Made by a program: the position numbers and the translations under genes. From contig JAGXBC010000001.1 in assembly GCA_018971305.1 (NCBI GenBank), positions 31,408-95,407 of the forward strand: 64,000 nucleotides of DNA. The letters run 5' to 3'. The DNA is from Patescibacteria group bacterium. Its GTDB lineage: Bacteria; Patescibacteriota; Minisyncoccia; UBA6257; 2-01-FULL-56-20. Below the pieces are notes generated by a model. The model saw only the letters and a list, made by a program, of their open reading frames with translations. It was not told where the DNA came from and ran no database searches. This document shows positions 3,698-63,225 of the stretch, piece after piece; the first letter of the stretch is position 1, and each line of letters starts with the position of its first letter.

Positions 3698-3952
3698 TTC
3701 ACCGTTATTTCGCTTTATTTTATCGCATTTCTAAAAATAGGGCTACACATTTCGTTCTGAATAAGTTAGCATTCCATCATAACTGAATATGAGGCCTAAT
3801 CCCCGTAGAAATGCGAGGCAGGGCTAAAAATACCAGTCAAGGTCAAAGATCCCATCATGTGGGAGCGCCTTGACTGGTCATACCTCGAAAGGGGTATGGG
3901 TCTCGCAAGAGATCGCCCATGTGGTGGGTTTTTTGATGTTAAATATATCATC

Positions 3953-22240: not shown

Positions 22241-23251
22241 CTATTTCGGTATGCTCAAGTAATACGTCTTGAGGTCTTCCAAAAATTTTCCTCCGAAATT
22301 CTTTGGCGTGAAAGGGAACGGCAGCCACTCCTTGGAAGTCGTCTGCCAAACCTCGGTGATAATTCCTTTCCGATGGTTAACCAGAAAAACGGGAATATCG
22401 CGTTCCTCTCCCCAAAGCAATTCGCACTGCAAATTGAGTTCTAAAAGGTGCTGGCGATCCTTATACATAACGTGCGGCGGACCGGGGCTCAGTTCTTCGT
22501 CATGAAGAATAAAAACGTATCTGAGAATCGACGAGTTTGCCCTACGCATCTGACGCACAGCGTCGCGAAGCGGATAGATGGGATGATATTCGCACATTCC
22601 GTCGATCGCGCCGATGTAATGATCTTTTCCCATAATCAAGGCGGAATAGCGCCTATCCGGAAAAACACTCCTCGGACTATAGGCGTCGTTGGTTAGTTTT
22701 TTCTCCTCGCGGAGCAATTCTTCGGCAAGGCCTTGAAAATACTCAAGGGTTTCCCCGCAAAGGTCAACGGCTTTTTTCTTTACGTCAAAGAGCAAAAGCC
22801 TCATGGAAGAAACCGCAGCTTCGTGTGTTTCGCGATTTCCACAAACAAATTCAAAATCCGTTCCCAGGCCGCCGAGAATAACGTCACGGCAATTTCCGCA
22901 ACAGGTCGGAGGAGAGTTAAATTCCTTGCGAACGGACGTGAATCCGAAAATAATATCGCCTTGCTCGGACCAGCCATAACGCGAACGGAATGCCGCCACG
23001 GCACACTCCTCGCAATGCAATGCCTGCATTACCCCATATTCAATATTCCCCACAGGAAGGAATTCTCCACTCCATATCCCGATAGAACCGCGGACGAAAT
23101 AATTGGAGAATATCGGCATAGACACGCTAGAGTCATGCGCCACTTCCAATGCTTTTCCGTATGAATAAACCTTACGTTGTTGCAGATCCGAAAGCGGGGT
23201 ACTTCGTATTTTCCCTTCGTGATCAAGCTCGAGATTCCTGAAGTTCCACAT
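22241..23251 (-). CDS. cdd: Cytidine deaminase, two-domain (E. coli Cdd-like) type
   Basis: Zinc-ligand motifs HCEECAV (H-x-E) and PPTCCGNCRD (PCxxC) in the CDA-fold context SNYFVRGSIG...GNIEYGVMQAL; a second zinc-less repeat follows. Confidence 0.6.
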   Translation of the reverse strand: MWNFRNLELDHEGKIRSTPLSDLQQRKVYSYGKALEVAHDSSVSMPIFSNYFVRGSIGIWSGEFLPVGNIEYGVMQALHCEECAVAAFRSRYGWSEQGDIIFGFTSVRKEFNSPPTCCGNCRDVILGGLGTDFEFVCGNRETHEAAVSSMRLLLFDVKKKAVDLCGETLEYFQGLAEELLREEKKLTNDAYSPRSVFPDRRYSALIMGKDHYIGAIDGMCEYHPIYPLRDAVRQMRRANSSILRYVFILHDEELSPGPPHVMYKDRQHLLELNLQCELLWGEERDIPVFLVNHRKGIITEVWQTTSKEWLPFPFTPKNFGGKFLEDLKTYYLSIPK

Positions 23252-23314: not shown

Positions 23315-23354
23315 AAGAAAAAACAAAAAGGCCGAGGGTTTTTAATCCTCGGCC
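23315..23354 (-). terminator. Rho-independent terminator directly after the 914-aa gene
   Basis: Stem ggccgagg(23330-23337)/cctcggcc(23347-23354), followed on the minus strand by TTTTTGTTTTTT. Confidence 0.65.
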
Positions 23355-23360
23355 ACTGAA

Positions 23361-26105
23361 TTATACCGGTATATATCCAGTCAATTCATCTATCATGTTC
23401 TCAATGAACGGCGCCATCTTACCTTGTTGATATCCCTTGGTTCCTTCCGCCGGACGCACAAATTCATCATCCTTGCCTTTGTAGGCAGGACTCTGGAATT
23501 TGTAGTTCAGCAAGAATTCCCAGGGAACAAACTCAACAGTGATGCCGTGATGAGTGGAGAATTCGATCAGAGTGAACATAACCGTGGACATGAGCCCAGC
23601 ACGCAGCTCATAGCCGCTTTGTCCGGCAGCAGCTCCCGCCTGAACGATGACCTTGTCTCCAAGCTCAGTCATCCAAACGGAATGTTTATCGCCACCGAGG
23701 AGAAGATCAATCCCCCTTGAGGCGCGAGCCATATTTCTGAGCCACTTCTTCCCTTCATCCGCGGGCGTTCTTCCGGCGAAGGGCTGCCACATATGCTGAA
23801 TGGCAACCTTGAATCCGCAGATTGTATCCACAAAGAAAGGCCAATTAACAATATCGCCTTGTGGATTGTGGGTATCCATCCAGCGAATCCTGCTAATTGT
23901 CAGAGCTTTCTTAAGCGGATTATCAATGCCGAGTCGCTCTCGTTCCATTAAAACTCCCTGAAGACCTGTCTCAAGGAACGTTAACGGACTATCACCCGAA
24001 CGCTTGGCATCAAAATTATTCCACTCGTGATTTCCAAGCCATGCAGCCACATCCTTAAGATTAGGAGCACCAAGAATCAAAGGCGCAACCAATCCGAAGG
24101 AAAACTTCTTTTGGGCGTGCATACTCGTCAAGCGAGTCGGCCTATTTTCCGCGGTATTCTGCGGATACATGTTGCCGTGGATGAAATCTCCATTGATCCA
24201 CAGATGCTCTGCTTGCCGCTCATGAAGCCCATAGTCAAGAAATTTAACCACGAGCTCTGGCCATTGAGTAATAGAGCCGAATTGCTCGTCCGTGGCAAGA
24301 AGCCCCACAGAACGCTGCTCCTTCATACCCTTGTGTGCTTCAATTACTTTCATAACCGAGCGATTCAAAATCCTGAAACGAAGACGGCCGTCAGCGCATA
24401 AAATGATTTCTGGCGCCGATGGAGAAACAGGTTCCTTGCGAACCCTGTCTTGTCTCCGCTCTTTGGATTCCAAAATTCTCGTATTCCATTCTTTCATCGT
24501 GTATGCCGCAGCAGGCATAGTATTCTGCATTCCTGGCAAATTAAGTATCCAGGTGCCCATCAAGTATTCCGCGAAGAAACTTTCTTGATGGAAATCGGCA
24601 AGCATCCAGGGCAGCTCCTGACGTGAGAGACCAAGGTGCCTCGCAATAGCATCCATATGTTGAATGGTTGCTTGATATTGCGTGATGTCGGAGAATCCGG
24701 CGTTGTGGACAACACGAATTTCTTTATTATCCGCGACTTTGAGCCGCAGGGTATCGGGCGTCACGATACGTTTTCCAATATTGCCATAAAGGGCCGCAAC
24801 GTTTACCACCTTTTCGTAATCTTTCGGATAATTGAAGCCATACTGCTTGGCCAGCCTAATCTCAATGATTAGACGATATTCGCTCTTCCGAATGCCAATC
24901 TTGTTATAAACCTCTTGACGGTTCAAGAGAGAACTACCGATCCTCAGTTGGTACGTATCAATGATTTCCCACTGAGCCCTGATCTTTCGACGAAGCTCCT
25001 TGTTGTCCAAGCGACGCGTCATCTCGGCAGAAAAACTCTGCCAGTTAACGCCGAACTTCCAAGGATTCTTACCTTCGGCGAGGTGCATCAGTGTGGCATA
25101 ATCTTCAGCCAATCGCCAATCGTCATCTCCCTGAATCACGCAAACTTTATTAGTAACGATTTTTTCCATCCAATCCAGCAACAAGCCGGCGGAATGGAAT
25201 TGGGACTCGATTTTGTGCAGTCCGCCCTCTTCCACCAACATATTTGATTTGGCTTTATTCTTTACCTCAAAACGCCCCTGTACCAACCCGCTCGTAATAA
25301 CGAGACTGGGCTTGTCGGTTGCGCTCAGGATCCATTCAAGCAATTCTTCGTCCGTATATTGGCTTCCGTAGAGAACTTCCCCCACGAAAAGAAGTTTAAG
25401 GTCTTTGCCTTTCAGCTCTTCGCTGAGGTCGGTTACCGGGACCATTTTATTCACCCGATCTTTTTTCAAGATTTCTCTTACTTCCGCAAGAGATGCGGGC
25501 ATATCACCAGACTCTTCGCCTTTCACAAAAATCTTGTTTTCCAGAGCGGTGGTTTCCAGTGTCATTATGGACTGGGCATCAACACCTAACTCAACACCGC
25601 GCGGGGTAAGAGAATATTCATTGCCTTTTTTGTTTGCGCGAATCAATCCAAGTGCCAGGTAATAAGCAAAGAGTGTCGTTAAAAACTCAACCCCCTGCTT
25701 TTCGCTGCCATAGAGTGCATTGGCAATCATCAATAAAGAAATCGGATGATCGCTTAACTGACCAAGGATCCTGTTTTTTTCTTTTTCGGGAAGAAGCTTG
25801 TAGAGCTCATCCGATTTATAAAAACCGGCTTGGTTGGAAAAATACCAGTGGCAATCGTTAGCACGATCTCTGACTTTAACCAGAAATCCCTGGTCTTCAA
25901 GTTTGTCAAGAATACCGCGCGTCCAGTTTTTATTCCGCTTAAGGAGCCGCGATGCTTGACGATTTCTTAATCGCCTTGCCCTCTGGAGATGTGGCTCTAA
26001 TTTTTTGTATGCTTGCAAAACTTCCTGTTTTTCTTTTTTGGCTTGCTCCGGACTAATTGGCTTAGGATCAACAGCGACAATCTCTTTCTTTTTGTTTTTG
26101 TTCAT
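23361..26105 (-). CDS. Large hypothetical protein (914 aa): Lys-rich N-terminus, uncharacterised ~480-aa N-domain, C-terminal region with calcineurin-like metallophosphoesterase-type motifs
   Basis: Phosphoesterase-like motifs in order: LADFHQE (D-x-H), WINGDFIHGN (GD..H), WLGNHEWN (GNHE), LGGDKHSVW, STHHGIT. The N-half has no motif I recognise. Monocistronic, with its own terminator. Confidence 0.5.
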   Translation of the reverse strand: MNKNKKKEIVAVDPKPISPEQAKKEKQEVLQAYKKLEPHLQRARRLRNRQASRLLKRNKNWTRGILDKLEDQGFLVKVRDRANDCHWYFSNQAGFYKSDELYKLLPEKEKNRILGQLSDHPISLLMIANALYGSEKQGVEFLTTLFAYYLALGLIRANKKGNEYSLTPRGVELGVDAQSIMTLETTALENKIFVKGEESGDMPASLAEVREILKKDRVNKMVPVTDLSEELKGKDLKLLFVGEVLYGSQYTDEELLEWILSATDKPSLVITSGLVQGRFEVKNKAKSNMLVEEGGLHKIESQFHSAGLLLDWMEKIVTNKVCVIQGDDDWRLAEDYATLMHLAEGKNPWKFGVNWQSFSAEMTRRLDNKELRRKIRAQWEIIDTYQLRIGSSLLNRQEVYNKIGIRKSEYRLIIEIRLAKQYGFNYPKDYEKVVNVAALYGNIGKRIVTPDTLRLKVADNKEIRVVHNAGFSDITQYQATIQHMDAIARHLGLSRQELPWMLADFHQESFFAEYLMGTWILNLPGMQNTMPAAAYTMKEWNTRILESKERRQDRVRKEPVSPSAPEIILCADGRLRFRILNRSVMKVIEAHKGMKEQRSVGLLATDEQFGSITQWPELVVKFLDYGLHERQAEHLWINGDFIHGNMYPQNTAENRPTRLTSMHAQKKFSFGLVAPLILGAPNLKDVAAWLGNHEWNNFDAKRSGDSPLTFLETGLQGVLMERERLGIDNPLKKALTISRIRWMDTHNPQGDIVNWPFFVDTICGFKVAIQHMWQPFAGRTPADEGKKWLRNMARASRGIDLLLGGDKHSVWMTELGDKVIVQAGAAAGQSGYELRAGLMSTVMFTLIEFSTHHGITVEFVPWEFLLNYKFQSPAYKGKDDEFVRPAEGTKGYQQGKMAPFIENMIDELTGYIPV

Positions 26106-29565: not shown

Positions 29566-31815
29566 TTACTTCTTCAAAATCTCCCTGAATACCTCCGGCG
29601 ATAAACTCACCCTGCCCGTTTCTTTCAATCTTTTTTTGCCTCGCTGCTGTTTTTTCCAAAGCTTCATTTTCCGTGTTCTGTCGCCGCCGTTCTTCCCGAA
29701 ATCGCCGAGTGCTTTCTTCATCGCAGCAATCGTCTCGCGCGCGACAATCCTGCCCATAGCCCGAGCCTGCACCGCTTGGGAAAATTGCTGTTTCGGAAGG
29801 AGCTCTTTTAATCTTTCAACTGAGGTCCGCGCCTCGCGTTCCATATCTTTTTTGGCAACTATGCGAGTCAAAGCCGGCACGACTTCCTCCGCCACCAAAA
29901 TTTCCAATTTCTCAACCTCCGCTTCCGCCTCGCCGTCCAACTCGTAGCTGAACGACGCAAATCCAGCTGATACCGATTTCAACTTGTCATCAAAATCACG
30001 GATAAGTTCGGAAAGCGGCATGCGCGCGATTATGAGCAGATTGTCACCGATATTTTTTATCTCGGAAACTTCAATATCGAAAATTGTTTTAAGATTAACG
30101 ACTTGGCTAAGGTAGGCCTGAGGCGCGAGTATTTCCATTTTTATCATCGGCTGCCAGACACGCTCGGGCTTCATGGGAAATTCGTGCGGTTCCTTGACGA
30201 TAAAATCTTTTCCGCCGTCGCGTACTCGGTAAGCGATAGAAGGAAAGCTTGTTAAAAATTCCAGATTGAATTCTCTCTCCAGGCGGCTCGCAGTAATTTC
30301 AAAGTGGAGCTGACCCAAAAAACCCACTTTTAAACCTCTGCCCAGAGCTTCGTTCGCGTCGGGCTCAAAGCTCAAAGCGGCGTCAGTTAAACGCAAACGT
30401 TCCAACCCCCTCTGTAAATCTTCAAATTTTGTATCTCCGTCCGGATAGAATGCTATAAAGACTACCGGCGCTGGCTCTTTATATCCATGCAATTGCTCCG
30501 CCTTTGAACCTGCAATCGCAATAGTGTCTCCAATATGAACTAGCGCTGGCTCCTTTAGCCCTGTTGCCACATAGCCCATTTCATCGGGACCTATCGCCGG
30601 GGTCGCCTTCAGTTCCGGAGAAAAATAACCGACCTCCTTGATTTTGAATTTTGCTCCCGTGGCGAGAAGAACAACTTCGCTTCCGGAATTAATAGAATTG
30701 TCGCTTACGCCGGGGAAAACCCGCACGAAAGCCAATATGCCTTTGTGATCGTCGTACAAAGAATCAAAAATCAAAGCACGCGGCTCTTGGCCTCCGGTAT
30801 CATCAATTTTTTTAGGCGGCGGCGTTTGCTTCACGACGCCACCCAAAAGTTCTTTAACTCCTTCGCCGGTCTTCGCAGAAATCCTGAATATCTCTTCTTC
30901 TCCAACTCCGAGTAAGTCCGCGGTTGCCTTAATCACTTTATTTATATGAGGCAGGTCCAGGTCTATTTTATTTACTGCTCCGATAATAGTAAGCCCGGCT
31001 TTTCGTGCCGCACGCAAATTAGAAAGTGTCTGCGCCTGGATTCCTTTCGCGCCGTCAATTAAAAGTACTGCCCCTTCAACTGCCGTTAATGCCCGCGAGA
31101 CCTCGTAAGAAAAATCGCTGTGGCCCGGGGTGTCAATCAGGTTGAGTATATACTCAACCTGCTCAGATTTTCGCAGATCAGACGCAGATGTACGCCGATC
31201 GCGAGCGGAATCGTAAACAATTCTTTCGATTTCAACGCCCTTGGGAGCAAAGTTGATCAAGAGAGATATTTTATAATCAGAACCTCGCAGATAAGACCAG
31301 GCTTGTTTTTTTTCGGTATCGCCAATAAAGGGCAGGGCTTTAAGCTCAATTAAAACCTCCTTATTGATCAGCAGGTCAGGATAATAATCGCCAACAGGTT
31401 TATCATCGTATTGTATTTTTAAATGCGGTTGGGCAATAAAATCAACGCCCCGACTTTTTAGCTCAATCTCCAAGGATTTCTGATATACCGATTCACGAAA
31501 TCCTGGACCAATTTTATTCCAAACATCAAAAGCAGCTCCTCGTATTTTGTAGGTTAATTCCTTGTATAAAAATTTGGTATCTGCGTTTATCTGCGTATCA
31601 TCGGCGTTAATCTGCGCAGGATGCTTATAGAGCATCCTGACGGGCGCCATTTTTATAGTAATCCCCCGCTCGCGCTCCAATTCCAATTTATCCAAATACT
31701 GCGGTTTCATCCGCCGCGCGTCCACCGTTCCCGTAATCTCCAAAAGTCGATCCGCCAAAGTTGATTTACCGGAGTCAATATGCGCGATAATTACGAAGTT
31801 TCTTATATTCTCCAT
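29566..31815 (-). CDS. lepA: Elongation factor 4 (LepA) with an in-frame ~156-aa GxxExxY / PD-(D/E)XK-like insertion in the G domain
   Basis: G1 AHIDSGKST, G2 RGITIK, G3 DTPGHSDF, and the LepA-specific C-terminus GDRTRKMKLWKKQQRGKKRLKETGRVSLSPEVF. Between G2 and G3 (residues ~66-221, nt ~31153-31620) lies a GxxExxY-family module GPGFRESVY...YPDLLINKEVLIELK. Start placed at MENIRNF. Confidence 0.85.
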   Translation of the reverse strand: MENIRNFVIIAHIDSGKSTLADRLLEITGTVDARRMKPQYLDKLELERERGITIKMAPVRMLYKHPAQINADDTQINADTKFLYKELTYKIRGAAFDVWNKIGPGFRESVYQKSLEIELKSRGVDFIAQPHLKIQYDDKPVGDYYPDLLINKEVLIELKALPFIGDTEKKQAWSYLRGSDYKISLLINFAPKGVEIERIVYDSARDRRTSASDLRKSEQVEYILNLIDTPGHSDFSYEVSRALTAVEGAVLLIDGAKGIQAQTLSNLRAARKAGLTIIGAVNKIDLDLPHINKVIKATADLLGVGEEEIFRISAKTGEGVKELLGGVVKQTPPPKKIDDTGGQEPRALIFDSLYDDHKGILAFVRVFPGVSDNSINSGSEVVLLATGAKFKIKEVGYFSPELKATPAIGPDEMGYVATGLKEPALVHIGDTIAIAGSKAEQLHGYKEPAPVVFIAFYPDGDTKFEDLQRGLERLRLTDAALSFEPDANEALGRGLKVGFLGQLHFEITASRLEREFNLEFLTSFPSIAYRVRDGGKDFIVKEPHEFPMKPERVWQPMIKMEILAPQAYLSQVVNLKTIFDIEVSEIKNIGDNLLIIARMPLSELIRDFDDKLKSVSAGFASFSYELDGEAEAEVEKLEILVAEEVVPALTRIVAKKDMEREARTSVERLKELLPKQQFSQAVQARAMGRIVARETIAAMKKALGDFGKNGGDRTRKMKLWKKQQRGKKRLKETGRVSLSPEVFREILKK

Positions 31816-31890
31816 GATGTGAGTGTACAAATAAAAATGGCCATCCACAAGGAATGGCCGGTAAAACATAACAAACACCCGACTCGGTCT

Positions 31891-56469: not shown

Positions 56470-59400
56470 CTACTCGGTTTGCGATTCTTTTGCAACTTCT
56501 GGAACGGGAGCCTGAAGCTCCGATACTTCATCATCGGAATCACCGGCTCTTTTCACCTTAATCTCTCCGGAAGGTATTAATCTGCCTATAATCACATTTT
56601 CTTTAAGCCCGCGCAGATTATCGGTCCTGCCCTCGATAGCCGCCTTCACTAAAACTCTTGCCGTATCCTGGAAAGACGCTGCGGCAAGGAAACTATCGGA
56701 AGAAATAGCAACCCGCGTTATGCCTAATAGAATTTCTTCGGCCTTAGCAACCTTGAGACCCTGTTTTTTAAGTTCTTTATTGACGTCCATCAGCAAAGCT
56801 TTTTCAATGATTTCCCCCATGACAAAATCCGAAGCATCTCCGGCATCCTTGATTTTAACCCTGGAGAACATCTGCTTGATGATAACTTCTATGTGCTTGT
56901 TGTTTATAGAGGCACCTTCGGAGAGATAGATCCTTTGAACTTCGTTCACAACGTAGCGCTCAACTTCCCTTACGCCTCTGAATTCCAAAAGTTCTCTCAA
57001 GTCAATGTGACCCTCGGAAATCTGCTGGCCTTTTTCAATTTTATCTCCGGCTTTCACGAACAAAAGAGCGGAACGCGGCACCGAGAACTCCTGGGCTTTT
57101 TTCTTTTTGGTTTTCTGAGGATTTTTTTCCAATAGTTTTATTATCTTGCTCGTCCCCTTTTCTTCTATAACATCAATCGAGCAATCAAAGGGAGCTAAAA
57201 TAGCCTTGCCTTTCGGCGGGCGGACTTCAAAAATTTCTTCCACGCGCGGCAAACCGTGGGTGATGTCCACTCCGGCAACACCTCCGGTGTGGAAAGTTCT
57301 CATCGTAAGCTGCGTTCCAGGTTCACCGATTGATTGCGCGGCAAGTACCCCTACCGCTCCACCCAGTTTAACCGGTTCATTGCTGCCGAGATCCAGTCCG
57401 TAACAAGTGGCGCAAAGACCGTAAAGAGTTTTACAGTAAATAGCCGAACGAACTTTAACTGATTCCAATTTGGATTTATCCAGCATCTCGGCTATCGCTC
57501 TTGTGATCACTTCTCCGGCGCGAACAACGATCTTCCTGTCGATTCTTATGTCTTCTAAAGCTGTTCTTGAGAACACTCTGCTAGAAAAAGACTGATTGAA
57601 TTCTTTCCCGTCTTTGCGCAAAATTTCTATCCCCTCTTTCGCGCGGCAATCGTTTTCCCTGATTATGAGATCCTGAGAAACATCAACCAAACGCCTGGTA
57701 AGATATCCTGCTTGTGCAGTTTTTAAAGCCGTGTCCGTAGTACCCTTTCTAGCGCCGGTAGTGGAAATAAAGTATTCCAAAACAGAAAGACCCTCTTTAA
57801 AAGATGATTTGATAGGCAATTCAATCGTTTCTCCTTTCGGATTAGCCACCAATCCTTTCATACCCAACATCTGTATCGGCTGAGCCCAGGAACCGCGCGA
57901 ACCGGAATCGATAATCTGGTAGATGGAATTGTTCTTCGGCAGGGAAGTGGCAACAAGCTTGGCAATGGTTTCCTTCGCTTTTTCCCAGACGCTGATTGTC
58001 CGCGCCCTGCGCTCGGATTCGGTAAGCAAACCCTCGTTCCACTGATCGTGAACAATGTCTATTTCTTTTTCTGACGCTCTGATGATATCTTCCTTTGTGC
58101 CAGGTGCGACAAGGTCGGATATTGCCCAAGTGATTCCAGACCTTGTGGCCATATCAAAACCGAGTGATTTTACCTCATCCAAAACCTCGCGAGTCACCTT
58201 TAATCCGCGGCTCTCCAATATCTTTTCAATAATAGAAGTAAGTTTTTTCTTGTTAATCGTGTCATTTACAAAATCCGCAGCGCCGCACAGGGCTTTATTA
58301 AACATCAACCGGCCCAAGGTTGTTTTTATTCCCTGGGATAATATCGGGTCGTGAAGCTTCAGGCTCCCTGACTCGTAGGCCAATACCGCCTCATCAAAAC
58401 CGGACATAGCTTTTATAAGGGCTTGGTTATCTTCTTTTATAAGTGTCAGATAATAAATACCGAGGACGACATCCTGGGTCGGATTGGTAATAAGATCACC
58501 GGTAGCTGGTTTCAAAAGATTTTGTCCGGCAGACATTATAGTAGCTGCTTCGTGCTGGGCATTCTCAGAAAGCGGCAGGTGGAGAGCCATTTGGTCACCA
58601 TCGAAGTCGGCGTTAAAAGCCGCGCAAACAAGCGGCGGAACGTGTATGGCTAATCCCTCAACAAGAAGCGGCCTGAAAGCCTGTACGCTCAAACGATGCA
58701 AGGTAGGAGCCCTGTTCAATAGAACCCATTTGTCTTTTATAATTTCTTCCAAAATCGCCCAAACCTCGTCACCGCCTTCTTCCATGAAGCGATTGGCGCT
58801 CCTGATGTTATGGGCCAATCCTCTTTTCATAACTTCGCTCAAAACGAACGGACGGAAAAGTTCCAAGGCCATTCGCTTGGGAACTCCGCACTCGTCAATT
58901 TTCAATTTAGGACCGACGACAATAACCGAACGGCCGGAGTAATCAACTCTTTTACCCAAAAGGTTCTGGCGGAACCTTCCTTGTTTGCCCTTAAGCATAT
59001 CTGCAAGGGAACGAAGCGGACGGCGCTGAGCGGACAATTGCTGCGTGCCGAAACGGGCAGAATTATCTATGAGGGCATCAACGGATTCCTGGAGCATTCT
59101 TTTCTCATTCCTCACGATCACATCTGGAGCTTTGATCTCCAAAAGCTTCTTCAAACGGTTATTGCGGTTGATGACGCGCCGATATAGGTCATTAAGATCG
59201 GATGTCGCATAGCGGCCGCCGTCCAGCGCGACCATCGGGCGCAGATCCGGAGGCAAAACCGGCAAAACATTAATTATCAGCCATTCCGGACGAGCCTGGT
59301 TCTTTATCATGGAACGGAACATCTTCAGGCGGCGCAATAATTTACCCTGGGTAAGCGGGTCTTTCGCGCCTTCAAGCTCTTTTTCTATCTCTCTCATCTC

Positions 59401-62400
59401 TTTTCTCAGATCCATTGACTTCAAAATTTCATATACGGCTTCTGCGCCGCTGCCCGCTTTGAACACATCGCCGAAGCGGCGGGAGAGATTGAAATATTCG
59501 GTCTCGCTCAAAACCTGGCCAACGCTAAGGTTTTCCAGGTAATTTCCGGTAACATCTGCTGCCTCGTTAAGTTCCTGTTTGGTCTTTTTGTCTTTGCCGC
59601 CAATCTTCAATTTACCCTTGAGCTGACGATTCAGGTCTTCCAAAGCCTGCTTCCTCAATTCTTCGTTAACCTCCGTGACAATATAAGCGGAGAAATAAAT
59701 AACTCTTTCCAGCTTTGTAGAAGGAACGTTAAGGGTCAGACTGAGGCGCGAGGGAACGCTCTTCAGAAACCAAATATGGCTGACCGGAGCTGCCAAGGCA
59801 ATGTGCCCGATTCTTTCGCGCCGCACGACAGCTCTTGTTACTTCAACACCGCACTTGTCGCAGACGACACCCTTATAACGAATCCTCCTGTACTTACCGC
59901 AATAGCATTCGTAATCTTTAGTCGGACCGAAAATTCTTTCCGAGAACAATCCGTCTTTTTCCGGACGCTGAGTTCTATAATTAATAGTTTCCGGTTTAAC
60001 CACCTCACCGTGTGACCATTTTAGAATATCTTCTGGAGAAGCGACGCTGATTTTAAGAGACTTGAAATCCTCCTTACGGGACATTTCTGACTCGTATGTC
60101 GGCTGAATATTAAAACACAACGATTTCAACTCGTTCACTAAAACATTGAAAGATGCCGGAAGATTCGGTTCCTTAATGGATTCGCCTCGAATAATAGACT
60201 CGTAAGCGGCGGCCCGTCCTAAGACATCATCCGACTTAATGGTCAGCATTTCCTGCAGGGTGTGGCGTGCCCCGTATCCCTCTAGGGCCCAGACTTCCAT
60301 TTCCCCGAAACGCTGCCCGCCGAATTGAGCTTTGCCGCCAAGCGGCTGTTGCGTAATTAAGGAATATGGTCCGATAGAACGCATATGCGCTTTATCTTCC
60401 ACTAAATGGTTGAGCTTCATGATATAAACCTGTCCGACCATTACCTTATTATCGAACTGCTTACCGCTCCTGCCGTCGTAAAGGGCAACCTTGCCGTCTT
60501 CGGGAAGCCCGGCTTTCTTTAATTCTTCTTTAATCTCCTCTTCGCTAGAAGAATCTAATCCGGGAGTAATGGCCCGATAACCGAGACGCTGGGCGGCCCA
60601 GCCTAAGTGAGTTTCCAAAATTTGCCCCAAGTTCATACGCGAAGCGACGCCAAGCGGATTCAAAATAATGTCTACCGGTGTCCCGTCTTCAAGATAAGGC
60701 ATATCTTCCACGCGCCTTACCTGGGAAATAACACCCTTGTTTCCGTGCCTGCCGGCAAGCTTATCTCCGGCCTGCACCTTACGAAGCTCAGCCACCTCAA
60801 CCTGAATTCTCTTGATGATTCCCGGCTCCAGCTTATCTCCTTTCTCACGGTCAAAAACCTTGATGTTCACAACGCGTCCGCGCTTGCCGTGAGGCAAGGT
60901 AAGAGACGTATCTTTCACATCGCGCGCTTTCTCTCCGAAAATAGCCCTGAGCAACCGCTCTTCAGAAGTAAGCTCGGCTTCGCCTTTCGGAGAAATTTTA
61001 CCAACCAAAATATCGCCGGATCTGACTTCTGCTCCGATTCTTACAATTCCTTCCTCGTCCAGATTCCTCAGTTTCTCCTCGGAAACGTTCGGGATGTCTG
61101 GTGTTGTGAGTTCCGGACCGAGCTTCGTGTCACGGACATCGTGGTAATAATCTTCTATATGGATGGAGGTGAATAGGTCGTCGCGCACAACCCGTTCAGA
61201 AAGAATAATTGCGTCCTCAAAATTCGCGCCTTCCCAAGACATGAACGAGACAAGAAGATTCTGTCCGAGAGCGAGCACTCCATTATCAATAGACGGCCCG
61301 TCAACCAAAACCTCTCCCTTCTTAACCGACTGTCCGGAGACGACAAGCGGCCTCTGGGATATACAGGTGAATTGGTTGGATCTCTTGAATTTTTCCAGTA
61401 TATAATTTTTTACGCTCTTAGCGTATTTAACTTTTACGTGGTTGCCATCCGATTCCAGGATCTTTCCATCCGCTTCGGCAATAACAACATAACCGGAATC
61501 GCGCGCCACTCTGTCCTCTTCTCCGGTGGAAACATAAGGAGCGTTCGGCCTAACGGAAACGACAGCTTGACGCTGCATGTTAGAACCCATCAGAGCGCGA
61601 TTGGCATCGTCGTGCTGCAAGAAAGGTATTAAAGATGTTGCCACGCTTACAAACTGATGGGGAGCAATGTCCGTAAAATCAAGGTCTTTGGGAGCGCAGG
61701 TGCTCGGCGCGCCATGAACTCTCGCCTCTACCAAATCTCCGGCAATATTGCCTTCGGGATCTTTTGCAACTCCCGCATGCGTAATTTTGTATTTCTCTTC
61801 TTCCAGGGCATCCAGCCAAACTATTTCTTCAGTAATACGACCGTTTTTAACCCTCGCGTAAGGCGTCTCTAAAAAACCGAAATCATTAACCCGAGCAAAG
61901 CTTGCTAAATAGTTGATGAGGCCGATATTGGCGCCTTCCGGAGTCTGAATCGGACAAATCCTGCCGTAATGCGAACGATGAACGTCACGCACTTCAAAGC
62001 TGGCGCGTTCGCGAGTAAGTCCGCCGGGGCCCAAAGCCGAAATTCTGCGCTTGTGTTCCAGCTCTGCCAATGGATTTACCTGGTCCATAAACTGCGAAAG
62101 CTGTGAGGATGCAAAAAACTCCTTGATAACCGCCGAGACGGGACGGAAATTAATTAGCTGCGCCGGCATCAGACGTTCCTTCTCTTCTGTGGACATCCTG
62201 TCCTGAATAATTCTGCGCAGGCGGGCGAAACCTATTCTTAATCTTCCTTGCAGCAACTCGCCAACAGCTTTAAGCCTTCTGTTTCCAAGGTGATCAATGT
62301 CGTCTGGCTGGGCGGCTGGATCATTATTTAAAGATATTATCTCGCGCACAATGCCGATGATGTCATCAAGGTCAAGAAGACGGTTATCTTTTTTACTGCC

Positions 62401-63225
62401 GAACTTCAACCGCTGATTGGTTTTGAAGCGGCCCACCGGAGACAGGTCGTATCTGTCCAAACGCTGGAACATAGCATCAATCAAGCTCTTGGCCGTTGCC
62501 GGCGTCGCCGGGTCACCCGGGCGCAAACGGCGGTAAATTTCCATATACGATTCATCAACGTTCTTAGCTACATCTTTTTTAAACGTAGCTTCAATATATT
62601 TGGCACCAACGCCGGGGAAAGCGTCTTTGATCTTATCCTCTTCCATACCGAAAATACGAAGCATATCTGTAACCGGCACCTTGCGGCGACGGTCGATTTT
62701 AACATGTATGGCTCCGTCCAAGTCGGTTTCAAATTCCAGCCAGGCACCCCTATTCGGAATAACCTTGGCCCCAAAAAGCTGCCTGCCCCTCGTAGGGACG
62801 GCGGTAAGATAAACCCCAGCCGATCTGATAAGCTGAGACACGACAACACGCTCAACGCCGTTAATAATAAAAGTGCCGCGCTCGGTCATTATCGGAAATT
62901 CCCCAAAATAAACTTCTTGCGTTTCCTTGTGGCCAGTTTTCTTGCTCTCCAGAGTAAGCTTTATGCGCAACGCTGCTTCATATGTGGCATCGCGATATCG
63001 CGCAGTGGCTTCGTCGTACTTAGGTTCATCAAAATGGTAATCACTGAAGCTCAATTCCAGTTCCTTACCGGTGTGGTCATAAATAGGAGAAATCTCGTCC
63101 AATAGTTCCCGTAATCCCTTTTTAAGGAACCACTCATAAGATTTCAACTGAGTCTCATTCAGATTGAATGGCTTGATGAGGGACTGGGATTTAGAGAAGT
63201 TTTTGGTTGATAAAAATTTAGGCAT
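56470..63225 (-). CDS. rpoBC: Fused DNA-directed RNA polymerase beta-beta' subunit (RpoB-RpoC in one 2251-aa ORF)
   Basis: The N-terminal ~1020 aa carry RpoB motifs ([29 protein letters not shown]; ...[48 protein letters not shown]). After the short linker [14 protein letters not shown], RpoC follows: zinc finger [35 protein letters not shown] catalytic loop. No stop or frame change occurs across the junction (~60.07-60.10 kb). Confidence 0.9.

What the first reader, a model, noticed from the sequence alone, without database searches (positions are those of the whole stretch)
23361..26105. Stand-alone 914-aa gene: unknown ~480-aa N-terminal half joined to a C-terminal half carrying calcineurin-like phosphoesterase motifs
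The C-terminal ~420 aa contain, in the canonical order, LADFHQE, WINGDFIHGN, WLGNHEWN, LGGDKHSVW and STHHGIT. This is the motif series of binuclear-metal phosphoesterases (Mre11/SbcD, ApaH, PP2B type), though the spacings are atypical. The N-terminal half begins with a Lys/Arg-rich nucleic-acid-binding-like tail and has no signature I recognise. The gene is monocistronic with its own strong terminator, and lies between a cytidine deaminase gene and guaB. It could be a new nuclease or phosphodiesterase architecture.
Basis: partly seen in the sequence, partly recalled or inferred. Interest (0 to 1): 0.55.

Follow-up and report, generated by a model that had tools for sequence, protein, structure and literature searches.

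The report
Tandem PolD-small-subunit-like nuclease of ultra-small microbes
This 914-residue gene of a Patescibacteria (CPR) bacterium encodes an undescribed protein with two DNA-binding-type winged helices, a crippled copy and an intact copy of the metal-dependent nuclease domain otherwise known from the proofreading subunit (DP1) of the archaeal replicative polymerase PolD, so it is most likely a new kind of nucleic-acid exonuclease.

Summary
The ORF (23361-26105, minus strand, 914 aa) is real, conserved and followed by a strong terminator. All five quoted strings are present, but only three are true metallophosphoesterase motifs: II (GD640), III (GN692H693) and V (G-D806-K-H808). The real motif I is D606-E-Q608-FGS and motif IV is H771. 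LADFHQE lies in a second, degenerate copy of the same domain, and STHHGIT is not conserved.

An AlphaFold model (pLDDT 84, pTM 0.81) and profile comparisons give this order:
- a disordered basic tail;
- two winged helices;
- phosphodiesterase domain 1, which lacks the bridging Asp and the catalytic His and carries a conserved helical insert;
- phosphodiesterase domain 2, whose active site is conserved in at least 94% of 143 family members.

The family is rare (178 clusters among 1.84 billion representatives). Every labelled member is from Patescibacteria or unclassified 'bacterium' MAGs, apart from one DPANN archaeon. All are annotated as hypothetical.

Its most frequent neighbour is pcm, in both gene orders. 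In this window the neighbours are guaB, an adenosine deaminase and a cytidine-deaminase-like gene.

Most likely function: a two-metal 3'-5' exonuclease acting on single-stranded nucleic acid. The biological role is inferred only.

The parts
23361..26105 (-). Whole CDS, 914 aa (stop codon included)
   Evidence: ORF list. It is 100% identical to a Patescibacteria MAG 'hypothetical protein' and has 36 full-length homologues.
26058..26105 (-). Residues 1-16: Lys-rich tail, predicted disordered and not conserved
   Evidence: pLDDT below 50 for residues 1-16. This region is variable or extended in the homologues. The first 60 residues are 32% K/R.
25821..25976 (-). Winged helix 1 (about residues 44-95)
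25590..25787 (-). Winged helix 2 (about residues 107-172)
   Evidence: Secondary structure of the model. The family profile hits the winged helix of MecI at E 0.023. G170, G174 and D176 are invariant in the close subfamily.
25413..25577 (-). Helical linker (about residues 177-231)
   Evidence: Model helices 177-199 and 206-220.
24531..25406 (-). Phosphodiesterase domain 1 (about residues 234-525): degenerate duplicate.
24786..25034 (-). Helical insert in domain 1 (about residues 358-440), the most conserved block of the N half (Q378, Y385, R388, K407, E409, R411-L-I, E415; 'KSEYRLIIE')
   Evidence: Invariant columns in A1. Model helices 358-389, 396-403 and 409-422. The C-domain has no counterpart for this stretch in hhalign.
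24315..24530 (-). Linker with a beta-hairpin (about residues 526-597), carrying conserved basic residues (R551, Q552, R556, K557, D572-G-R574)
   Evidence: Invariant columns. Model strands 564-569 and 575-580.
23523..24314 (-). Phosphodiesterase domain 2 (about residues 598-861): the predicted active nuclease domain
   Evidence: The family profile hits T. kodakarensis DP1 (6knb_A) at E 5.8e-6 across motifs I-III. Metallophos hits. phrog_284 'exonuclease' hits 22 of 27 members, best 3.7e-11.
24273..24290 (-). Motif I: D606-E-Q608-F-G-S611 (Gln in place of the usual His)
   Evidence: D606 in 143/143 members; Q608 is Q in 135 and H in 8. It aligns to DP1 'SDIHVGS'.
24162..24191 (-). Motif II and base-stacking dyad: G639-D640-FIHGNM-Y647-P648
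   Evidence: G639 and D640 in 143/143, Y647 in 134/143. It aligns to DP1 'GDVVDGVGiYPGQ'. In DP1, Y412 and P413 contact bases of the ssDNA primer (PMC10721889).
24021..24035 (-). Motif III: G691-N692-H693-E-W (H693 is the equivalent of DP1 H451 and Mre11 H85, the catalytic His)
   Evidence: G691, N692 and H693 each in 142/143 members. DP1 N450 and H451 are described in PMC10721889.
23793..23795 (-). Motif IV: H771
   Evidence: Present in 142/143 members.
23682..23693 (-). Motif V: G805-D806-K-H808 (GHxH in most of the family)
   Evidence: Position 806 is H in 128 and D in 12; H808 in 137. The profile aligns 'GGHwH' to DP1 'AGHVH' (second stretch).
23364..23522 (-). C-terminal tail of short helices (residues 862-914), with conserved P885, P899, E902, D906 and T909
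23318..23354 (-). Intrinsic terminator: 8-bp GC-rich hairpin plus T-run, starting 6 nt after the stop codon
   Evidence: Read directly. Fold energy -16.5 kcal/mol, z -3.67, and 0 of 200 shuffles fold as well.

Best explanation
The gene encodes a cytoplasmic multi-domain nuclease of the calcineurin-like metallophosphoesterase superfamily. Its catalytic module is most closely related to the Mre11-like phosphodiesterase (PDE) domain of DP1, the 3'-5' proofreading exonuclease subunit of archaeal DNA polymerase D.

Shown by computation (architecture):
- The order is a disordered basic tail, two winged-helix domains, a helical linker, PDE domain 1, a hairpin linker, PDE domain 2 and a short helical tail.
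- PDE domain 1 is an internal duplicate. It has lost the bridging Asp, the motif-I His and the catalytic His, and has gained an 85-residue conserved helical insert.
- PDE domain 2 keeps a complete two-metal site (D606, Q608, D640, N692, H771, D/H806, H808), the catalytic H693 and the Tyr-Pro dyad that stacks on bases in DP1.

Inferred (mechanism):
- Domain 2 hydrolyses phosphodiester bonds by the two-metal mechanism.
- It most likely removes nucleotides from the 3' end of single-stranded DNA or RNA and releases 5'-mononucleotides.
- The winged helices, the basic linker and the crippled domain would hold and position the nucleic acid, in the way the second protomer does in an Mre11 dimer.
- The protein works without a DP2 polymerase partner.

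Inferred, weaker (biological role): nucleic-acid turnover or repair tied to nucleotide salvage and cell maintenance. This rests on its neighbours: guaB, adenosine deaminase and a cytidine-deaminase-like gene here, and the protein-repair methyltransferase gene pcm in most relatives.
For: Fold:
- The AF2 model has pLDDT 84.2 and pTM 0.81.

Sequence:
- A profile of 75 diverse members searched against all PDB sequences gives one significant hit, T. kodakarensis DP1 (E 5.8e-6). The shared pattern is LLSDxxxGS...GDvvxGxxYPgqxxE...Q...GNH(E/D). Mre11, SbcD and Vps29 score E 0.3-0.9.
- NCBIfam NF003118 'DNA polymerase II small subunit' is the most frequent named hit among distant members (8 of 42).
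- The phage 'exonuclease' family phrog_284 hits 22 of 27 members, best 3.7e-11.

Active site:
- Seven of the eight catalytic positions are identical in at least 96% of 143 members; Q608 is Gln in 135 and His in 8.
- They map one-to-one onto DP1 D360/H362/D404/N450/H451/H497/H560/H562. Y647-P648 map onto DP1 Y412-P413, which contact the ssDNA primer (PMC10721889).

Duplication: hhalign of the N-half against the C-half gives E 5e-7, motif by motif.

Gene context:
- guaB and adenosine deaminase lie upstream and a cytidine-deaminase-like gene downstream in the window.
- guaB is again next to a member only about 20-25% identical (L027).
- PRPP synthase and pyrBI lie near the archaeal member.
- pcm is the same-strand neighbour, nearly always immediate, in 33 of the 61 loci examined (60 fetched plus the window; several near-identical). 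It occurs in both gene orders and in two otherwise unrelated contexts.
Against: - No biochemical data exist for any member.
- The query itself scores below Pfam's Metallophos cut-off (13.6 against 21.5 bits).
- Motif I has Gln where nearly all characterised enzymes have His, and the query has Asp for His in motif V. Both residues can bind metals, but activity is unproven.
- The DP1 exonuclease channel is partly built by DP2, which is absent here, so substrate and polarity cannot simply be transferred.
- The metallophosphoesterase fold also hosts many small-molecule phosphodiesterases.
- The link to nucleotide salvage rests on a few loci, and pcm is absent from this 64-kb window.
- Domain 1 keeps a conserved Glu/Asp/His cluster (E243, D327, D328, H467, H506, E508), so calling it merely inactive may be too simple.
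Confidence: 0.55

Rival explanations
1. A small-molecule phosphodiesterase or nucleotidase acting on cyclic or 2',3'-cyclic nucleotides, dinucleoside polyphosphates or nucleotides. It would feed the neighbouring salvage enzymes and play the role that the nucleotidase SurE plays next to pcm in E. coli.
For: - The neighbours are nucleotide-metabolism genes.
- pcm adjacency recalls the surE-pcm operon of E. coli. That parallel is from my own knowledge and was not tested here.
Against: - The best sequence and structure matches are nucleases that act on polynucleotides (DP1, then Mre11/SbcD and the phage exonuclease family).
- The Tyr-Pro base-stacking dyad of DP1 is conserved.
- Two winged helices, a conserved basic linker and 900 residues are hard to explain for a small-molecule enzyme.
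Confidence: 0.2
2. An Mre11/SbcD-type DNA-end-processing nuclease for double-strand-break or hairpin repair. The fused dead domain would replace the second protomer of the Mre11 dimer.
For: - It has the Mre11-like fold and a full motif set including the catalytic His.
- The tandem live and dead domains resemble a covalent pseudo-dimer.
- Winged helices could bind duplex DNA.
Against: - No Rad50/SbcC-like ATPase gene was seen beside it, either among the recurrent neighbours of the 61 loci or in the Pfam lists of the 9 loci with called genes.
- No capping domain follows domain 2; only about 50 residues of short helices do.
Confidence: 0.15
3. A mainly non-catalytic scaffold, like the eukaryotic polymerase B subunits, that tethers a polymerase, primase or other partner.
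Against: - Domain 2 keeps every catalytic position at 94% conservation or more across members only 16-25% identical overall. That is not expected for a scaffold.
- There is no OB domain and no polymerase gene nearby.
Confidence: 0.05
4. A nuclease of a mobile element or an anti-phage defence system.
For: - It is related to the phage family phrog_284 and to phage metallophosphoesterases.
- One distant member lies next to an rve integrase inside a ribosomal-protein operon.
- The family has a patchy, rare distribution.
Against: - There is no PADLOC hit.
- None of 2.9 million viral contigs encodes a relative.
- The contexts are stable and housekeeping: ddl-X-pcm-23S rRNA, proS/M16/pcm-X-lepB-hisS-ftsA-ftsZ, and guaB-X.
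Confidence: 0.05

Closest known systems
DP1, small (proofreading 3'-5' exonuclease) subunit of archaeal family-D DNA polymerase (PDB 5ihe, 6knb)
   Same: - It is the only significant PDB sequence hit of the family profile (E 5.8e-6).
- It has the same five motifs, the same catalytic His and the same Tyr-Pro, Glu and Gln positions between motifs II and III.
   Different: - There is no OB-fold domain and no DP2 gene.
- The domain is duplicated in tandem, with the first copy degenerate.
- Two N-terminal winged helices are present.
- Gln replaces His in motif I.
- The hosts are CPR bacteria plus one DPANN archaeon, not archaea in general.
- The query does not reach any Pfam or NCBIfam cut-off for DP1 or B-subunit families.
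B subunits of eukaryotic replicative polymerases (Pol delta p50, Pol alpha B, Pol epsilon p59)
   Different: - The B subunits have an OB domain and bind a polymerase C-terminal domain.
- In this protein the dead domain is fused to a live one and still carries a conserved acidic/His cluster and a large helical insert.
Mre11 / SbcD nucleases
   Different: - Similarity is lower than to DP1.
- There is no capping domain.
- No Rad50/SbcC partner gene was seen among the neighbours.
Phage 'exonuclease' family phrog_284 (about 400-aa single-domain metallophosphoesterases; several similar phage proteins carry the automatic name 'DNA polymerase II small subunit')
   Same: The HMM match is significant for 22 of 27 members (best 3.7e-11) over motifs IV-V. 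Foldseek E is down to 2e-10 against phage metallophosphoesterases.
   Different: - They have a single domain and less than half the length.
- Query-normalised TM-score is at most 0.28.
- No relative was found on viral contigs or by tblastn in 50,697 phage genomes.
surE-pcm gene pair of E. coli (a metal-dependent nucleotidase next to protein-isoaspartate methyltransferase). This is from my own knowledge and was not tested here.
   Same: A phosphoesterase gene is persistently paired with pcm.
   Different: SurE has an unrelated fold, is about 250 aa long and acts on mononucleotides. The window itself has no pcm.

Membership tests
Calcineurin-like metallophosphoesterase superfamily | Five ordered motifs: DxH, GD, GNH(D/E), H, GHxH | tested here: met
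   Domain 2 has D606xQ608, G639D640, G691N692H693, H771 and G805(D/H)806xH808. Each position is kept in 94-100% of 143 members. There are two ligand substitutions: His to Gln in motif I, and His to Asp in motif V of the query.
Calcineurin-like metallophosphoesterase superfamily | Alpha/beta sandwich fold | tested here: met
   [not shown]
Calcineurin-like metallophosphoesterase superfamily | Pfam PF00149 gathering score | tested here: inconclusive
   The query scores 13.6 bits against a cut-off of 21.5. Seven of 27 close and 16 of 42 distant members match, down to E 5e-8. The archaeal member scores 22.7 bits.
PolD small subunit DP1 / polymerase B-subunit family | Phosphodiesterase domain closer to DP1 than to other metallophosphoesterases | tested here: met
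   [not shown]
PolD small subunit DP1 / polymerase B-subunit family | OB-fold domain immediately N-terminal to the phosphodiesterase domain | tested here: not met
   [not shown]
PolD small subunit DP1 / polymerase B-subunit family | A partner catalytic subunit (DP2 or a B-family polymerase with a C-terminal Zn-finger domain) encoded in the genome or nearby | tested here: not met
   No PolC_DP2 or polymerase family appears among the called genes of 9 loci or among the large ORFs of the window. No recurrent large neighbour was found. The whole genome could not be checked.
PolD small subunit DP1 / polymerase B-subunit family | 3'-5' exonuclease activity on mismatched primer ends or ssDNA | not testable with these tools
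   This needs biochemistry.
Mre11 / SbcD | Capping domain after the nuclease domain | tested here: not met
   Only about 50 residues of short helices follow domain 2.
Mre11 / SbcD | Adjacent Rad50/SbcC ATPase gene | tested here: not met
   Unbiased clustering of neighbours in the 61 loci found pcm, ddl, pgk, DHHA1, an M16 peptidase, lepB, hisS and HTH_17 proteins, but no SMC-like ATPase.
Known anti-phage defence systems (PADLOC) | Match to a defence-system protein model | tested here: not met
   There are no PADLOC hits at E up to 0.1.

The most novel reading that the evidence does not exclude
The family would be a free-standing branch of the DP1 / B-subunit lineage, which has so far been tied to archaeal and eukaryotic replicative polymerases, living in CPR bacteria and at least one DPANN archaeon. 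It would be a PolD-type proofreading nuclease that works without DP2. That could mean a relic of the stand-alone nuclease from which PolD recruited its exonuclease, or an archaea-to-CPR transfer that was duplicated and put to new use. One such use would be as a trans-acting 3'-end editing or trimming nuclease for the CPR replication or repair machinery, functionally coupled to the Pcm repair methyltransferase.
Probability: 0.2. Interest if true: 0.8.

Novelty: new variant of a known kind. Interest (0 to 1): 0.6.

Why it matters
- PolD and its Mre11-like proofreading subunit are described as exclusively archaeal (PMC10721889), and their inactivated descendants are the B subunits of all eukaryotic replicative polymerases. 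A conserved bacterial family whose two domains both look most like DP1, one live and one dead, offers a new outgroup for asking how that nuclease was recruited to polymerases.
- The protein shows in a single chain the active-to-inactive transition that is otherwise seen only between archaea and eukaryotes.
- The family is confined, as far as labelled members go, to ultra-small and presumably host-dependent microbes that must scavenge nucleotides. A dedicated exonuclease sitting among salvage genes would be a testable piece of that lifestyle.
- The persistent pairing with pcm is unexplained and can be tested directly.
- Practically, about 180 sequence clusters now annotated 'hypothetical protein' can be given a domain architecture and a catalytic prediction.

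Tried and rejected
- Direct sequence searches with the single query gave almost nothing. Pfam returned only a sub-threshold Metallophos hit, NCBIfam returned nothing, and phmmer against PDB returned only spurious antibody hits.
- A profile of only the close subfamily also missed every metallophosphoesterase in the PDB. The DP1 hit appeared only with the 75-member diverse profile.
- The afdb50 fold library was unavailable, so no architecture-level search of AlphaFold DB was possible.
Contexts of the distant subfamily therefore come from only four look-ups plus L025.
- A word-based homologue search with the distant member P0073 returned only itself.
- tblastn of the catalytic domain against phage genomes found no match, the scan of viral contigs found no relative and PADLOC found nothing. 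I therefore rejected a phage or defence origin as the main reading.
- I checked whether the 905-aa unknown ORF near pcm in L001 is a paralogue or partner. It has no Pfam hit and is not a relative of this protein by tblastn, so I dropped it.
- I checked whether the distant homologue in L026 sits in a composite transposon. There are no long flanking repeats, only a 55-nt upstream element.
- I could not inspect model coordinates or PAE. The relative orientation of the two domains, and whether they form an Mre11-like cleft, remains untested.
Full report
**1. The observation**

The window carries an ATG-to-TAA ORF of 914 codons at 23361..26105 on the minus strand.

The ORF is not a chance reading frame.
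- It is 100% identical to a 'hypothetical protein' of a Patescibacteria-group MAG and has 36 full-length homologues at 39-72% identity.
- An exhaustive HMMER scan of 1.84 billion cluster representatives finds 178 clusters. Nearly all are 700-1280 aa long and match both halves of the protein.

Six nucleotides after the stop codon there is an 8-bp GC-rich hairpin followed by a T-run (-16.5 kcal/mol, z -3.7). Upstream lies a 115-nt gap after guaB that contains a TATAAT and a GGGAGG Shine-Dalgarno sequence. A separate transcript is therefore plausible, though read-through from guaB is not excluded.

guaB is confirmed (IMPDH, E 6e-92). An adenosine deaminase gene lies beyond it on the other strand. 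The downstream 336-aa gene is only weakly cytidine-deaminase-like.

**2. Which motifs are real**

I aligned 143 full-length family members, many of them only 16-25% identical to the query. The nearly invariant positions in the C-terminal part are:

| Position | Conservation |
|---|---|
| D606 | 143/143 |
| Q608 | 135 Gln, 8 His |
| G639-D640 | 143/143 |
| N692-H693 | 142/143 |
| H771 | 142/143 |
| 806 | 128 His, 12 Asp (the query has Asp) |
| H808 | 137/143 |

This is the full metallophosphoesterase set: I DxH, II GD, III GNH, IV H, V GHxH.
- The true motif I is TDEQFGS (605-611) and motif IV is IQHMW (769-773).
- STHHGIT is not conserved.
- LADFHQE belongs to a different domain (section 3).

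**3. The N-terminal half is not featureless**

AlphaFold2 with the family alignment gives a confident model (pLDDT 84.2, pTM 0.81). Its parts are:
- a disordered tail (residues 1-16);
- a long helix;
- two helix-helix-helix-strand-strand units (about 44-95 and 107-172);
- a helical linker;
- an alpha/beta domain (about 234-525) interrupted by a helical insert (358-440);
- a hairpin linker;
- a second alpha/beta domain (about 598-861);
- a short helical tail.

A profile-profile comparison of the two alpha/beta domains (hhalign on the 143-member alignment) gives probability 77-87% and E 5e-7 to 2e-5, in register motif by motif:

| Domain 1 | Domain 2 |
|---|---|
| GEVLYGS | TDEQFGS |
| SG-LVQG | NGDFIHG |
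| QGDDDW | LGNHEW |
| VVHN | IQHMW |
| LADFHQE | LGGDKHS |

The protein therefore contains an internal duplication.

The first copy has lost the bridging Asp of motif II (deleted), the motif-I His (now Leu) and the catalytic His (now Asp). It cannot perform the canonical chemistry. It does keep a moderately conserved Glu/Asp/His cluster (E243, D327, D328, D329, H467, H506, E508). Its helical insert is the most conserved block of the N-terminal half (KSEYRLIIE and neighbours).

**4. The closest known protein is PolD DP1**

Three independent results agree.
- **Sequence, PDB.** A profile of 75 diverse members searched against every PDB sequence gives exactly one significant hit, T. kodakarensis DP1 (6knb_A, E 5.8e-6, 27.8 bits). 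P. abyssi DP1 scores E 0.12. Vps29, SbcD and Mre11 score E 0.27-0.9 at about 11-12 bits. The aligned segment spans motifs I-III of the C-terminal domain and shares more than the metal ligands: LLSDxxxGS...GDvv(D/Q)Gxx-YP-gq-x-E...Q...GNH(E/D).
- **Sequence, NCBIfam.** Among 42 distant members, the most frequent named hit is NF003118 'DNA-directed DNA polymerase II small subunit' (8 members). YfcE gets 2 and SbcD gets 1.

The cryo-EM study of proofreading PolD (PMC10721889, read) lists the following for DP1:
- metal ligands D360, H362, D404, N450, H497, H560 and H562;
- the essential catalytic residue H451;
- Y412 and P413, just after motif II, which stack on or pocket the bases of the single-stranded primer in the exonuclease channel.

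Through the HMMER alignment these map onto D606, Q608, D640, N692, H771, D/H806, H808, H693 and Y647-P648. Y647 is kept in 134 of 143 members.

**5. What it is not**

- **Not a DP1 orthologue.** There is no OB domain. No DP2 or any other polymerase gene is nearby in the 9 loci with called genes or among the window's large ORFs. No Pfam or NCBIfam model for DP1 or B subunits is reached by the query.
- **Not a typical Mre11/SbcD.** There is no capping domain, and no Rad50/SbcC-like neighbour among the 61 loci.
- **Not a recognised defence protein**.
- **Not found on viral contigs**.

It is, however, significantly related to the single-domain phage 'exonuclease' family phrog_284 (22 of 27 members, best E 3.7e-11). 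Foldseek also finds phage metallophosphoesterases of 250-500 aa, several of them automatically named 'DNA polymerase II small subunit'. None of these covers more than one domain (query-normalised TM-score at most 0.28).

**6. Distribution**

A pattern-based scan of GTDB species representatives found 18 loci.
- Seventeen are in bacterial MAGs: fourteen labelled Patescibacteria-type (Paceibacterota, Jorgensenbacteria, Yanofskybacteria, Minisyncoccia, 'Saccharibacteria') and three labelled only 'bacterium'.
- One 25%-identical member lies on a 63-kb contig of a Woesearchaeota archaeon. That contig is genuinely archaeal, because it encodes diphthine synthase (TIGR00522, 328 bits) beside the gene.
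- The two labelled members of the distant subfamily are again 'Patescibacteria group bacterium' and an unclassified 'bacterium'.

The family is rare, with 178 clusters at 50% identity, and every named member is annotated as a hypothetical protein.

**7. Gene neighbourhood**

I examined 61 loci: 60 fetched from genomes and metagenomes, several of them near-identical, plus the window. Unbiased clustering of flanking ORFs and targeted tblastn/blastp show one outstanding neighbour. It is pcm (protein-L-isoaspartate O-methyltransferase; PF01135 at E 8e-59).

pcm is on the same strand as this gene in 33 loci. The gap is 47-275 nt in 29 of them, 449 nt in one, and 687 nt with an intervening opposite-strand ORF in the three near-identical copies of the closest relative. 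It occurs in both orders and in two otherwise unrelated contexts:
- ddl - X - pcm - 23S/5S rRNA (or pgk - DHHA1), in members 39-48% identical to the query (rRNA confirmed);
- proS - M16 peptidase - pcm - X - lepB - hisS - HIT - ftsA - ftsZ, in members 33-38% identical.

Adjacency that survives a change of order and of surroundings suggests a functional or regulatory link. What that link is I cannot say. From my own knowledge, E. coli pairs pcm with the nucleotidase gene surE.

The window itself has no pcm anywhere in its 64 kb. Here, and in the closest relatives, the neighbours are nucleotide-salvage genes:
- adenosine deaminase and guaB upstream (window, L001);
- the cytidine-deaminase-like gene downstream (window, L002, L041).

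guaB is also the neighbour of a member about 20-25% identical (L027). PRPP synthase and a fused pyrB-pyrI lie near the archaeal member. These are few independent events, roughly p 0.03 by a crude estimate for the second guaB adjacency. I treat the salvage link as a lead, not a result.

**8. Mechanism**

Shown:
- the domain architecture;
- the internal duplication;
- the loss of key catalytic residues in copy 1;
- the near-perfect conservation of a complete two-metal site and catalytic His in copy 2;
- the specific resemblance to DP1, including the base-stacking Tyr-Pro.

Inferred:
- Copy 2 hydrolyses phosphodiester bonds of a single-stranded nucleic-acid 3' end and releases 5'-mononucleotides, as DP1 does. 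DP1 also degrades ssRNA according to PMC10721889.
- Gln608 and Asp806 serve as metal ligands in place of His.
- The winged helices, the conserved basic linker (R551, R556, K557, R574) and the helical insert of copy 1 (R388, K407, R411) bind the polynucleotide or a partner. They would substitute for the parts of the exonuclease channel that DP2 supplies in PolD.
- The dead copy packs against the live one as a covalent pseudo-dimer. The high pTM is consistent with a fixed arrangement, but I could not inspect coordinates.

The biological role is the weakest step. Candidates are nucleic-acid turnover for nucleotide salvage in organisms that cannot make nucleotides, 3'-end processing in repair or replication, or a maintenance function shared with Pcm.

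**9. Novelty and verdict**

The superfamily and the chemistry are well known. The family, its tandem live/dead DP1-like architecture with winged helices, its restriction to CPR/DPANN-type organisms and its pairing with pcm are, as far as three full-text searches show, undescribed. No curated protein-family model reaches its cut-off on the query, and no paper I found mentions DP1-like proteins in these organisms.

I rate it a new variant of a known kind, of moderate-to-good interest. It is a concrete and cheap biochemical target, and it bears on the origin of the PolD and B-subunit nuclease module.

Noticed in passing
window 56470-63225 (-): A single 2251-aa ORF encodes a fused RNA polymerase beta and beta' (rpoB-rpoC). 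Pfam Rpb2 domains cover residues 22-1041 and Rpb1 domains cover residues 1052-2156.
   Followed up: partly
window 29566-31878 (-): LepA (EF4) is 770 aa here but 583 aa in the 72%-identical relative's genome (L001). About 170 extra residues sit early in the protein and read like a GxxExxY / PD-(D/E)xK-type insert (YKIRGAAFDVWNKIGPGFRESVYQ...). I only read this by eye.
   Followed up: no
window 22241-23251 (-): The 336-aa gene downstream has HCEECA and PTCCGNC zinc-deaminase-like motifs but no Pfam hit. NCBIfam cytidine deaminase scores E 2e-5, far below its cut-off, and PDB 1uwz scores E 0.73. The gene is about twice the length of a tetrameric cytidine deaminase. It is conserved directly downstream of the nuclease gene in L002 and L041 (40% identity).
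   Followed up: partly
window 3793-3914 (+): A full-length match to the LOOT RNA family (RF03000): 93.7 bits against a gathering score of 46.4.
   Followed up: no
L003 12748-16447, L004 12471-15996, L006 11883-14953: In the ddl-X-pcm clade, pcm is followed directly by a 23S rRNA gene and then a 5S gene, with no 16S in between or upstream. The 23S spans up to 3.7 kb. In L004, GIY-YIG and LAGLIDADG ORFs lie within or just after it, and in L003 a tRNA-like match lies inside it. These suggest inserted elements.
   Followed up: partly
L026 2855-6001 and 6001-9852: A distant 1283-aa family member sits inside a ribosomal-protein operon, between L24/L5/S14 and L14/S17/L29/L16, next to an rve integrase. 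A 55-nt element is repeated four times upstream, and its last copy ends at about the start codon.
   Followed up: partly
L010, L013, L014, L029, L031, L033, L037, L048, L049 (just downstream of the homologue): In loci that lack pcm, a small ORF of about 70-98 aa of the MerR / HTH_17 type recurs immediately downstream. It is often followed by a large protein with a similar N-terminal helix-turn-helix.
   Followed up: no
L025 11017-12438 (-): The Woesearchaeota contig encodes aspartate carbamoyltransferase catalytic and regulatory chains fused in one 473-aa ORF (pyrB-pyrI).
   Followed up: no
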